Source: Candidatus Micrarchaeia archaeon (GTDB lineage: Archaea; Micrarchaeota; Micrarchaeia; Anstonellales; J096). From it: a stretch of DNA of 31,826 nucleotides. Position numbers: made by a program. Shown here one piece after another: positions 9,001 through 12,000 of this stretch. The first letter of the stretch is position 1, and each line of letters opens with the position of its first letter. The stretch spans positions 1-31,826 of the forward strand of contig JBGQMY010000013.1 in the NCBI GenBank assembly GCA_041500865.1. The letters run 5' to 3'.

Positions 9001-12000
9001 CGGAAGGTTCATTCCGCCGCATGTGATAGCCAGCGCGATAGATTCAATAGCCCGCATCGCAAAAAGCGAGACGGTTATGATGTTCGTATCCGACGTGCAG
9101 ATATCAGCAGTCGGCCTGGTTTACGGCATAAGCCAGTTCGTTGAAAAAAGGCCGGACTACCTTACAGGGCTCTGGGACCCAAATTTCCCGGGCCACAACT
9201 GGTCCCCTTTCTTGCTCGCTAGCCAGACCAGCCTGATTTAAAATATCTTTCTACAATAAGAAATACGGGCTATATTTTGGCGCATTCGGCCAGGATTCGC
9301 TTATGCGATAGATGATATATTTATATATACCACATATATATGTTATATACTAGAGGTGTACACGTATGGTCCAGGCGGTAATCAACATAGACGAGGAAAC
9401 AAACAGGCTGTTGAACATAGTCAAGGCGAAGTATGGGCTTAAGGACAAATCCGATGCGATAAACCTTGTGACTCAGGAATATGGCTCCCTCATACTGGAG
9501 CCTGCCCTAAGGCCGGAATACGAGAAAAGGCTGAAGAGGATAAAGAAGGGAAAATTCGTAAAGGTGAATGACTTTGCAAAAAGGTATGGGCTGGAAAAAT
9601 GAGCTATTCCCTTGAGCTATCCAAGCAGATAGACATGAAATTCAAGAAACTAAGCAAAAAACAGCCCAAGAAAATGGAGATAATAGAAAAGAAAACAAGG
9701 CAGATAATTGAGGACCCTTACCGCTTCAAGCCATTGAGGGGGCGCATGCACGGCATAAGGAGGGTCCATATAGACAAATCCTTTGTGCTTATCTACGAAA
9801 TAGACGAGCAAAGGAAGTCCGTAAGGTTGCTTGATTTTGAGCACCACGACAAAGTATACGTTTAAAACCTCTTTCCCTGATAATACAGATGGGCTAGGTT
9901 GGGGCTAGGGGTCCCAGTCCGCAAATCCCCTTTAGGCGGGCCGAATGCCTGGGGAGTAATGCTTTTGCCAAGCATCCTTCCCGTCGGGGCGTCGAAGTCC
10001 TGTCTTCCAATAGCGAGGATGCGGCGAAACTGGTGAGGCCGGAAGGAGCAGCCATAAGCCGTATTTTCCTGTTTGGAAGAGCCACAGGATGGAGCTTCGC
10101 CGGAAAAGGCCCTGTTTGGCTGGGCATTGCAAGCCAGGAAGCCCAATGGGCTTTTTCAAAAAAAGCCCAAGGCAAAAACCGACTACGTTTTTCTTCACCC
10201 CAAAAGAAACTATTTTAGGAAAAAGCACTTGGGGAAAGAAACTACTTTTGTCTTCAATCTCAAAGGAAGCATGGGCTCCGCGGAGCCATCATGCGACGCA
10301 TTCCCTGAAGCTCAGCATGAACAAATCGAAACTCTCTTCCCCTATCGCTTTTTTGAAATTCTCTATTGTTAGCTTTGACAGAAACGCAACTGTGTCTTTT
10401 TCATTATTTTCTTTGGCATATGCCAGCGCGGTCTTGCCATAGATGTCCGATTCGCCGATGTTTGCGCCTTTTCCAATCAATAAAGAGCATGTCTTGGTGT
10501 CTCCCTTCCATGCGGCCCTCATGAGCGCAGTCCTGCCTTTATTGTCTCTTATGTTTATTTCTGCGCCCTTTTCCAGTATTAGGGAGATTACGCGCCTGTC
10601 CCCATGCTGTATGGCCGCCATCATGGCAGTCTCGCCATGGATGTTCCGCGCATTGGCATCGGCGCCGCGCTTCAGCAGTGCCTTGGCTATCTTATAATGC
10701 CCGCCAAATGCGGCAAACATCAACGGAGTTTTGCCGTATTTGTTTTTTGCGCTTGGGTTTGCGCCAGCTTTCAGCAGGCGCATTATGTCTGTAGCAGGAA
10801 ACGTCTCATCCAGTATCCTTTCGCATACGTCACAAAGCCCCTTGTCCAGATATTCCTGCATTGACCTGTCTATCTCAATGTCGGGATTGGGCTTGCTGCG
10901 GCTGAAGAATGTGATTACCTTGTTTCGCATTTTCCTGATTGGCTCTTTATGCGCAAGCCGCATGGTAACGATTGTTAATAAAAGAGGTTAAAAATGCCAT
11001 TGGTTGACGAAGAAAGCGCCATCAGGCGACGCATTCCCTGAAGCCGTGCATGAACAGGTTGAGACCTTTCTTCCCCATTATGCTTTCAAATATTCTTGTT
11101 TCCGCCCTTGACAGCAACGCCTCTGTTTTAGGTTGCTTGTTCCTGATGGCAAGCATCCTTGCGGTCCTTCTGTAACTGTCAAATGCATTGGGGCTGGCGC
11201 CATTGTCCAGCAGCAGCTTGCATATTTTGGTGCGGCCGCGTTCCGCAGCAAGCATGAGCGCGGTCTTGTTGCATTCAGCCAGCATGTTCACGTCGGCCCC
11301 TTTTGCAACCAGGGCCTTGACTGTGCGCGGATGGCCTCGCTGCGCCGCAAGCATGAGCGCAGTCATTTTGTGGTTGTCCTGCGCATCAATCTCCGCGCCC
11401 AGCGCAAGCATGGCATTTACGATTTTGCGGTCTCCTCCCCATGCGGCGATAATCAGCGGGGTCATGCCGTCGCTGTCCTTTGCATTTGGGTTTGCGCCGG
11501 CGTTCAGCAGGCGCATTATTTTTTTAGTGTCGCTCATATTTGATTTGGTATCATTATACTTCACGATATTGTAGCATTCATCTACAAGCGCCTTGTCTAG
11601 GTCTTTCTGCTTTGGCTTTCTGATTATAATATCCAGGTCTGGCTTGCTGCGGCTGAAGAATGTGGCTATTTTGTTGCGCATTTTCCTGAATTGCCCCTTT
11701 TGCATAAGCTGCATGGCCTGATTGTGCATAAAAGAGGTTAAAAATGCTGTTGGTTGGGCATGCTGCGCCATCATTGTTTTAATACTTGCTTCAGATTACC
11801 TTTTCATGGATGCCTTTGAGGTCCTTGAGAGGAACGGGATAACGGTCGCGCCCTATGAGGTTGTCAAGACCAAGGCCCAGCTTTTCAGGGCCGCGGAAAA
11901 GATAGGATACCCGCTTGTCCTGAAGGCATGGGACACGAAGATAATCCACAAGACGGACGTCGGCGGCGTAATACTTGACAATTGGACAAAGGAGATGCTT

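What a model noticed while it worked through the whole genome (the two positions that open the first line are those of the whole stretch)
9887..10148. SRP RNA without helix 6 and no SRP19
The SRP RNA keeps the Alu domain and helix 8 but has lost helix 6 entirely, and SRP19, which binds helix 6, is missing in the whole family. This archaeon thus has a Bacillus-type large SRP (RNA + SRP54 only).
Evidence so far: Against the Archaea_SRP model the 40 positions of helix 6 align to 0 bases; the table's best family is Bacteria_large_SRP, 88.6 bits. PF01922 in 0 of 19 family genomes, controls ring in 3 archaea. PMC2905702 (passages, call 186) says SRP19 was found in all archaeal subgroups and coexists with helix 6.
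(Added by a program. Inside this text positions count along the whole contig: contig position 1 is position 1 of the stretch shown here. "Call 12" and the like, gene names such as g00115 and contig names such as C1 are that model's own, and its searches are not shown. The text may have been shortened before it was handed on; [...] marks where a part breaks off. The agent that wrote the report below was given it as the finding of a first reader that could run no searches.)

Follow-up and report, generated by a model that had tools for sequence, protein, structure and literature searches.

The report
Archaeal SRP RNA lacking helix 6
This is the RNA scaffold of the particle that sends proteins to the membrane in a tiny DPANN archaeon; it lacks one arm (helix 6) and that arm's protein partner SRP19, both thought standard in archaea, and the same stripped-down form turns up in every DPANN phylum examined, not just this family.

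Summary
Confirmed, and broader than reported. The 262-nt RNA at 9887-10148 is the genome's single SRP RNA gene (phylum Micrarchaeota). It keeps helices 1-5 and 8. Covariation shows helix 5 running straight into helix 8, with no helix 6. The loss is not family-specific: 147 of 149 small-genome archaeal SRP RNAs aligned, from three phyla, have the short 21-26 nt spacer. The two exceptions are a probable contaminant contig and an intron-shaped insert. SRP19 reaches the Pfam cut-off in 0 of 401, 0 of 274 and 0 of 301 genomes of these phyla, against 99 of 101 Asgard controls. A 2026 supplementary table already shows SRP19 at 0% in all 12 DPANN groups, unremarked in its main text. 'Bacillus-type' describes the shape only: sequence, promoter and SRP54 are archaeal, and same-family RNAs score best as Archaea_SRP. 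Most likely helix 6 and SRP19 were lost together, once, near the DPANN root. 'RNA + SRP54 only' is untested. I found no paper on the RNA side, but this scan noted it before in at least six other genomes. New variant of a known kind.

The parts
9861..9867 (+). TATA-box-like element (TTTAAAA) about 25 nt upstream of the RNA; overlaps the stop codon of the upstream ORF
   Evidence: sequence; TATA-like motif in the same upstream window of 46 of 50 own-phylum loci against 6 of 50 in a control window further upstream
9887..10148 (+). SRP RNA gene, 262 nt, single copy
9890..9895 (+). helix 1, 5' strand (pairs with 10140-10145)
   Evidence: fold; 7 of 7 consensus pairs with compensatory change among 35 relatives
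9897..9942 (+). Alu domain: helices 2-4 with loop-loop pseudoknot AGGGG 9907-9911 / CCCCU 9927-9931; UGUNR motif eroded
   Evidence: pseudoknot 99.4% paired, 3 of 5 pairs with compensatory change
9948..10011 (+). helix 5a-5e, 5' strand (pairs with about 10072-10138)
10012..10025 (+). continuous helix 5f-8 stem, 5' strand (pairs with 10058-10071); helix 6 would branch off at about 10014-10018 and is absent
   Evidence: 13 of 14 pairs with compensatory change; 40-column gap against helix-6-bearing RNAs
10026..10057 (+). helix 8 SRP54-binding region: asymmetric loop GAAAC/UAA, symmetric loop (G10035 in place of the usual C), 2-bp apical stem, GGAA tetraloop 10041-10044
10147..10169 (+). 10-bp perfect hairpin with a U-rich 5' arm directly after the RNA; possible terminator and part of a small genome-wide repeat
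   Evidence: a terminator function is inferred

Best explanation
A functional archaeal SRP RNA whose S domain is reduced to one unbranched helix 5-8 arm. Shown: the structure (Alu domain with pseudoknot, helix 5 continuous with helix 8), an upstream TATA-like box conserved across relatives, SRP54 and FtsY genes, and no detectable SRP19. Inferred: SRP54's M domain binds the symmetric and asymmetric loops of helix 8 directly, as Ffh does on bacterial 4.5S/6S RNA. Without helix 6 there is no helix 6-8 clamp for SRP19 to remodel, so SRP19 is superfluous. The retained Alu domain probably still contacts the ribosome. Helix 6 and SRP19 were most likely lost together, once, at or near the DPANN ancestor. 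This converged on the shape of the Bacillota large SRP RNA without gene transfer. Micrarchaeota later shortened the helix 8 tip by one base pair.
For: Structure: (91.0% of cells paired, 50 of 57 pairs with compensatory change, 0 of 500 shuffles as high; slid controls 39-53%). Breadth: spacer of 21-26 nt in 68 of 69 own-phylum, 45 of 46 phylum-B and 34 of 34 phylum-C RNAs. SRP19 above cut-off in 0/401, 0/274 and 0/301 against 99/101 Asgard. SRP54 M domain above cut-off in 118 of 120 genomes of the own phylum, so incompleteness does not explain the blank. Unfiltered hmmsearch of 19,411 six-frame segments of G000: best E = 2.5. Huang et al. 2026, Suppl. Data 25: arCOG01217 at 0% in all 12 DPANN groups, while SRP54 and FtsY are at 86-100%; presence probability 1 at LACA and 0.3 at the DPANN ancestor. 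SRP19 is dispensable in Haloferax, and archaeal SRP54 binds RNA without it (PMC2905702; PMC2568955). The expressed nanohaloarchaeal SRP RNA in the PMC10266531 supplement, read by eye, also runs from helix 5 straight into helix 8.
Against: No RNA run holding this locus was listed, so expression here is not shown. The published ancestral probabilities assume a euryarchaeal root and so are not independent of the loss reading. Archaeal high-affinity SRP54 binding needs SRP19 in vitro, and T. tenax SRP54 binds weakly without it; how DPANN SRP54 copes is untested. Hadarchaeota also show 0% SRP19, so the protein can be lost more than once.
Confidence: 0.72

Rival explanations
1. Ancestral retention: the helix-6-less large SRP RNA with an Alu domain is the state inherited from LUCA, shared with Bacillota. 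Helix 6 and SRP19 arose after DPANN split from other archaea.
For: Uniform absence across three phyla here and SRP19 at 0% in 12 DPANN groups, with no remnant stub in any RNA aligned. The architecture matches RF01854 over all 256 positions. A root on DPANN is one of the three published root hypotheses (abstract).
Against: The same paper's analyses place the root at or near Euryarchaeota with DPANN sister to TACK+Asgard, which makes the absence a loss. DPANN lose genes widely. Hadarchaeota show that SRP19 can be lost.
Confidence: 0.12
2. Several independent parallel losses in the different DPANN phyla, driven by genome streamlining.
For: SRP19 is dispensable. Convergent reduction is reported for DPANN. 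The DPANN-ancestor presence probability is 0.3, not 0.
Against: No retaining lineage was found in 976 genome searches over three phyla. The spacer length is nearly the same in all three (24 nt in 127 of 149), as expected from one deletion.
Confidence: 0.11
3. The RNA (or the whole SRP) was acquired from a Bacillota-type bacterium and replaced the archaeal one.
For: The best Rfam family is Bacteria_large_SRP for this RNA and its two congeners.
Against: True Bacillus RNAs score 212-245 bits against 88.6. Other helix-6-less RNAs score higher as archaeal: 181 v 110 and 177 v 108 bits. Same-family RNAs are best as Archaea_SRP. SRP54 matches archaeal-type entries best (organisms behind the PDB codes recalled). 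The promoter is TATA-type.
Confidence: 0.02
4. Helix 6 is gone, but a very divergent SRP19 or an unrelated protein does SRP19's job, so the particle has more than RNA and SRP54.
For: The Pfam control misses S. acidocaldarius SRP19. DPANN proteins evolve fast (recalled). About 8% of G000 is unassembled.
Against: Three profiles find nothing. The two inspected examples of the recurring weak NF001973 hit are EF-1alpha. No SRP19-like ORF is apparent beside rps8e in G000 (the linkage is recalled). SRP19's main binding site is absent.
Confidence: 0.1

Closest known systems
Archaeal SRP (7S) RNA, Rfam RF01857, with SRP19 and SRP54 (M. jannaschii, A. fulgidus; Zwieb & Bhuiyan 2010, PMC2905702)
   Same: Helix 1, Alu helices 2-4 with loop-loop pairing, long helix 5, helix 8 with symmetric and asymmetric loops and GGAA tetraloop; archaeal-type SRP54 and FtsY; TATA-type promoter.
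   Different: No helix 6 (40 nt shorter), so no helix 6-8 adenosine clamp; no SRP19; 2-bp instead of 3-bp apical stem of helix 8 (63 of 69 own-phylum RNAs); UGUNR eroded; falls below the Rfam gathering score.
Bacterial large SRP (6S/scRNA) RNA of Bacillota, Rfam RF01854
   Same: Same helix inventory: 1-5 and 8, no helix 6, no SRP19; aligns over 1-256 of 256 positions.
   Different: Archaeal sequence and protein partners; 88.6 bits against 212-245 for a real Bacillus RNA; the likeness is most likely convergent. The Bacillus Alu-binding protein HBsu (recalled) was not looked for.
Haloferax volcanii SRP19 deletion strain (Yurist et al. 2007, as summarised in PMC2905702)
   Same: Archaeal SRP working without SRP19.
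   Different: An engineered mutant whose RNA still has helix 6; here both parts are missing naturally.
Permuted circular SRP RNA of Thermoproteus (Plagens et al. 2015, PMC4731332)
   Same: A deviant archaeal SRP RNA missed by standard annotation; relatives of this locus carry BHB-shaped introns in helix 8, the form that paper proposed as ancestral.
   Different: Thermoproteus keeps helix 6 and SRP19; this gene is neither permuted nor interrupted.

Membership tests
SRP RNA (clan CL00003) | Helix 8 with SRP54/Ffh-binding symmetric loop, asymmetric loop and GNRA tetraloop | tested here: met
   one change, C to G at 10035, also seen in congener G001
SRP RNA (clan CL00003) | SRP54 and FtsY encoded in the genome | tested here: met
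   G000:C18 and G000:C5
SRP RNA (clan CL00003) | Expressed and bound by SRP54 | not testable with these tools
   no RNA holder listed; binding needs bench work
Canonical archaeal SRP RNA (RF01857) | Helix 6 with GNAR tetraloop | tested here: not met
Canonical archaeal SRP RNA (RF01857) | SRP19 partner in the genome | tested here: not met
   genome 92% complete
Canonical archaeal SRP RNA (RF01857) | Helix 1 and Alu domain (helices 2-4) with loop-loop pairing | tested here: met
Canonical archaeal SRP RNA (RF01857) | UGUNR motif between helices 3 and 4 | tested here: not met
   reads AGU then CCGC at 9916-9922; such deviations are known in several archaeal groups
Canonical archaeal SRP RNA (RF01857) | Gathering score 96.5 bits | tested here: not met
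   75.4 bits; 27 of 151 own-phylum genomes pass
Bacterial large SRP RNA (RF01854) | Helices 1-5 and 8, no helix 6; gathering score 60 bits | tested here: met
   88.6 bits, full length
Bacterial large SRP RNA (RF01854) | Bacterial descent of the RNA and its Ffh partner | tested here: not met
   no tree was built, so this rests on scores
Bacterial large SRP RNA (RF01854) | Alu-domain elongation arrest and HBsu binding (recalled for B. subtilis) | not tested
   needs experiment; HU-family genes were not searched

The most novel reading that the evidence does not exclude
The helix-6-less, SRP19-less large SRP of all DPANN is not a loss but the ancestral particle. DPANN and Bacillota would both keep the LUCA form, and helix 6 plus SRP19 would be a shared innovation of the remaining archaea and eukaryotes: a rare structural character placing DPANN outside all other archaea.
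Probability: 0.12. Interest if true: 0.88.

Novelty: new variant of a known kind. Interest (0 to 1): 0.57.

Why it matters
Reviews treat helix 6 and SRP19 as the core of all archaeal and eukaryotic SRPs (PMC2905702, PMC2568955). If the trait is DPANN-wide, a large share of archaeal diversity runs a simpler particle. That gives (1) a discrete RNA-plus-protein character to test DPANN monophyly and the archaeal root, independent of long-branch sequence trees; (2) a natural minimal archaeal SRP for asking what SRP19 and helix 6 are for; (3) a natural replicate, since Hadarchaeota also lack SRP19 in the published table, so co-loss predicts that their RNA lacks helix 6; (4) an annotation fix: 124 of 151 Micrarchaeota genomes have no RF01857 hit above cut-off, and some are labelled bacterial. 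The surprise is tempered because SRP19 was known to be dispensable and its absence from DPANN already stands in a supplementary table.

Tried and rejected
Expression: no RNA holder listed with a useful share; only DNA contigs were laid. Helix 6 in G030 (327 nt): set aside as a probable contaminant. Its 3.9-kb contig carries a second RtcB only 52-53% identical to the genome's other copy and to that of congener G020, while those two are 82% identical, and G020's RNA lacks helix 6. Long RNAs as hidden helix 6: all 20 own-phylum hits of 288-312 nt, all 15 phylum-B hits of 306-358 nt and all 3 phylum-C hits of 309-320 nt were read. The extra bases lie in the Alu domain, in helix 5, 3' of helix 8 or inside helix 8, never at the helix 6 junction as a GNRA hairpin. 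G652's 43-nt insert in helix 5f has no GNRA loop and reads by eye as a BHB intron. Weak SRP19 hits: PF01922 5 of 401 at E<=0.05, all at most 17.3 bits; the one inspected lies at the rpoE'/spt4 boundary. NF001973 32 of 151, all at most 19.4 bits, mostly in 420-450 aa frames; 2 of 2 such frames inspected are EF-1alpha. The word-seeded protein search reached almost only Asgard-like SRP19 and says nothing on DPANN. The sigma-70 and terminator scan found nothing and does not suit archaea. Literature: PMC7203096 mentions SRP19 and helix 6 only beyond the 300,000 characters held; the PMC7414124 supplements held contained no SRP19 row. No RNA tree was built.

Full report
Observation. The window's only non-tRNA Rfam hit is an SRP RNA: RF01854 88.6 bits at 9889-10146 and RF01857 75.4 bits at 9887-10148, below its cut-off of 96.5. 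It is single-copy and folds better than all 200 shuffles (z -3.75). A TTTAAAA box lies about 25 nt upstream; a TATA-like motif is found in that window in 46 of 50 own-phylum loci against 6 of 50 in a control window. Contigs from two other public DNA runs match 9920-10145 and 9937-10145 without a difference. The gene sits between a RelE/ParE-type ORF and ankyrin-repeat genes. SRP54 and FtsY lie on contigs C18 and C5.

Organism. The genome is 1.04 Mb and 92% complete. G127, from the window's phylum sample, has the same match coordinates as G1185, from the phylum of a record named Micrarchaeota, so the phylum is Micrarchaeota. Two further phyla were reached through named loci. Phylum C is that of a record named Woesearchaeota. 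Phylum B is that of a record named only 'archaeon'; it has 274 genomes at 80% completeness or more, of about 0.4-1.9 Mb, and its identity was not established. Aenigmatarchaeota is my guess from its size.

Anatomy. On 35 standard-length, intron-free own-phylum RNAs chosen from the fetched loci (alignment A1), a structure with helix 1, the Alu helices and their loop-loop pseudoknot, helix 5 and an unbranched helix 5f-8 stem has 91.0% of cells paired and 50 of 57 pairs with compensatory change. No shuffle of 500 reaches this, and slid controls give 39-53%. The structure was derived from this alignment, which inflates those controls somewhat. The stem across the former junction has compensatory change in 13 of 14 pairs. 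Against two helix-6-bearing RNAs (an Asgard genome and the G030 contig), MAFFT leaves a 40-column gap, and cmscan shows the 40 helix-6 model positions matched by 0, 0 and 1 bases in three helix-6-less RNAs. I could not display that alignment for this RNA itself. The apical stem of helix 8 is one pair shorter in 63 of 69 own-phylum RNAs; all 39 phylum-B and 31 phylum-C RNAs that the pattern could read have the canonical length (7 and 3 unread).

Breadth of the RNA trait. Own phylum: 133 of 151 genomes have a hit; 111 are 258-281 nt, 20 are 288-312 nt and 2 are weak or partial. Phylum B: 99 of 101 have a hit, 15 of them over 300 nt. Phylum C: 114 of 121, 3 of them over 300 nt. I read 150 RNAs: the best-scoring loci plus all the long ones, not a random sample. 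The 5e-to-helix-8 spacer is 21-26 nt in 68 of 69, 45 of 46 and 34 of 34, and 62 nt in the Asgard control. The exceptions are G030, a probable contaminant, and G652, with an intron-shaped insert. The nanohaloarchaeal SRP RNA printed in a supplement of PMC10266531 (173,757 RPKM), reverse-complemented by eye, also lacks helix 6; that paper's expression table has no 'SRP' string and two signal-recognition GTPases.

SRP19. PF01922 reaches its cut-off in 0 of 41 relatives, 0 of 401 own-phylum, 0 of 274 phylum-B and 0 of 301 phylum-C genomes, and in 99 of 101 genomes of the Asgard control's phylum. The SRP54 M domain passes in 118 of 120 own-phylum genomes. Because the Pfam control misses S. acidocaldarius, I also used NF001973, which rings in all four control archaea and gives at most 19.4 bits in 151 genomes (the two recurring hits inspected are EF-1alpha). 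A 41-sequence Asgard-based profile run without filters on 19,411 six-frame segments of G000 gives a best E of 2.5. These are 'not found', in incomplete genomes, and kin are not independent. One or two genomes in these tallies (G061, G1112) are unpublished; no claim depends on them.

Literature. PMC2905702 (parts 1-2 of 6 and passages) says SRP19 is in all archaeal subgroups and coexists with helix 6; it never mentions Nanoarchaeum and predates DPANN genomes. It also reports that SRP19 is dispensable in Haloferax. PMC2568955 (passages) and PMC4731332 (passages) give the binding data. PMC6098224 (passages) repeats the standard view. PMC5498576 (one passage) only lists SRP subunits for Mia14. Huang et al. 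2026, PMC13473441 (abstract, one section, rows of Supplementary Data 25) gives arCOG01217 at 0% in all 12 DPANN groups and in Hadarchaeota, and 91-100% in the other seven groups. Presence probability is 1 at LACA, 1 at TACK+Asgard+DPANN and 0.3 at the DPANN ancestor, under a euryarchaeal root. Its main text never mentions SRP. So the protein half is in print as data but not discussed. For the RNA half, eight full-text searches found no paper stating that DPANN SRP RNA lacks helix 6. The library lacks most subscription journals, the relevant passages of PMC7203096 lie beyond the held text, large data supplements of PMC7414124 were not held, and bioRxiv supplements are closed. This scan's own notes record the same RNA form in at least six other DPANN genomes; they are leads, not support.

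Mechanism. Shown: the parts list and the fold. [quoted passage not shown] Inferred: with helix 6 gone, the helix 8 loops are presented as in bacterial SRP RNA, SRP54 binds unaided, and SRP19 has no site. Since SRP19 deletion is tolerated, the protein could have gone first and freed helix 6. The near-constant spacer in three phyla points to one deletion. Direction depends on the archaeal root: loss under the currently favoured root (0.72 single, 0.11 repeated), retention under a DPANN root (0.12). Transfer from bacteria is very unlikely: a real Bacillus RNA scores 212-245 bits on RF01854, other helix-6-less RNAs score far better as archaeal, and SRP54 is of archaeal type. NCBIfam's bacterial ffh model outscores its eukaryotic SRP54 model (337 v 283 bits), both below cut-off and with no archaeal SRP54 model among the hits, so that test is uninformative.

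Verdict. Real, and larger than first described: a DPANN-wide variant of the archaeal SRP that works like the Bacillota large SRP but is not a member of that family by descent, and that fails the helix 6 and SRP19 criteria of the canonical archaeal SRP. New variant of a known kind; interest 0.57.

Noticed in passing
L019 (G024), L020 (G022), L058 (G102), L206 (G652), L294 (G474), L307 (G725), L308 (G698), L309 (G770): Bulge-helix-bulge-shaped inserts of 31-53 nt inside SRP RNA helix 8 in all three phyla, at three positions. In-silico cutting at the standard BHB sites restores the canonical helix 8. G650 and G661-G663 carry a similar insert that failed the strict test. PMC4731332 proposed such intron-bearing SRP RNAs as ancestors of permuted genes; this scan noted two other DPANN-like cases before.
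   Followed up: partly
L206 (G652:C2:86666-87012): A second, 43-nt BHB-like insert in helix 5f; removing both inserts gives 273 nt, the length of the sister RNA in G651 (by eye).
   Followed up: partly
L056, L057, L059-L071, L038, L047 (families f13-f15); L295, L299, L303, L305, L306 (phylum B): An extra 20-45 nt hairpin on the 3' side of helix 8, opposite the lost helix 6, in several lineages; no shared loop motif seen. Possibly a structural surrogate.
   Followed up: partly
window 10039-10046 and own-phylum loci: The helix 8 apical stem is 2 bp rather than 3 in 63 of 69 Micrarchaeota RNAs; two Planctomycetota records show the same shortening (L099, L138).
   Followed up: partly
PMC13473441 Supplementary Data 25: Hadarchaeota also show 0% SRP19; their SRP RNA could not be reached here.
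   Followed up: no
window 10147-10340; also 11018-11074 and 23639-23684; G000 C22:5019-5131 and eight other contigs: A hairpin-bearing A/T-tract element after the SRP RNA recurs in the genome; the C22 copy begins at the 3' end of a tRNA-Leu gene.
   Followed up: partly
L075 (G030:C113): 3.9-kb contig with a helix-6-bearing SRP RNA, a second RtcB and an archease-like gene; probably foreign to this bin.
   Followed up: yes
window 16941-19418 (-): Radical SAM protein with an intein carrying a LAGLIDADG domain. The genome's RtcB match (G000:C1:56958-59729) is also split within one 933-aa frame, possibly by an intein.
   Followed up: no
window 1204-1914, 10289-10963, 11022-11774, 13536-14141, 31049-31813: Five ankyrin-repeat genes in 32 kb; another lies beside rps8e on C9 by eye.
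   Followed up: no
window 9599-9865 and 4145-5038: RelE/ParE/YafQ-type toxin ORF directly upstream of the SRP RNA promoter, preceded by a short probable antitoxin ORF ending at 9601; a Fic-domain gene at 4145-5038.
   Followed up: no
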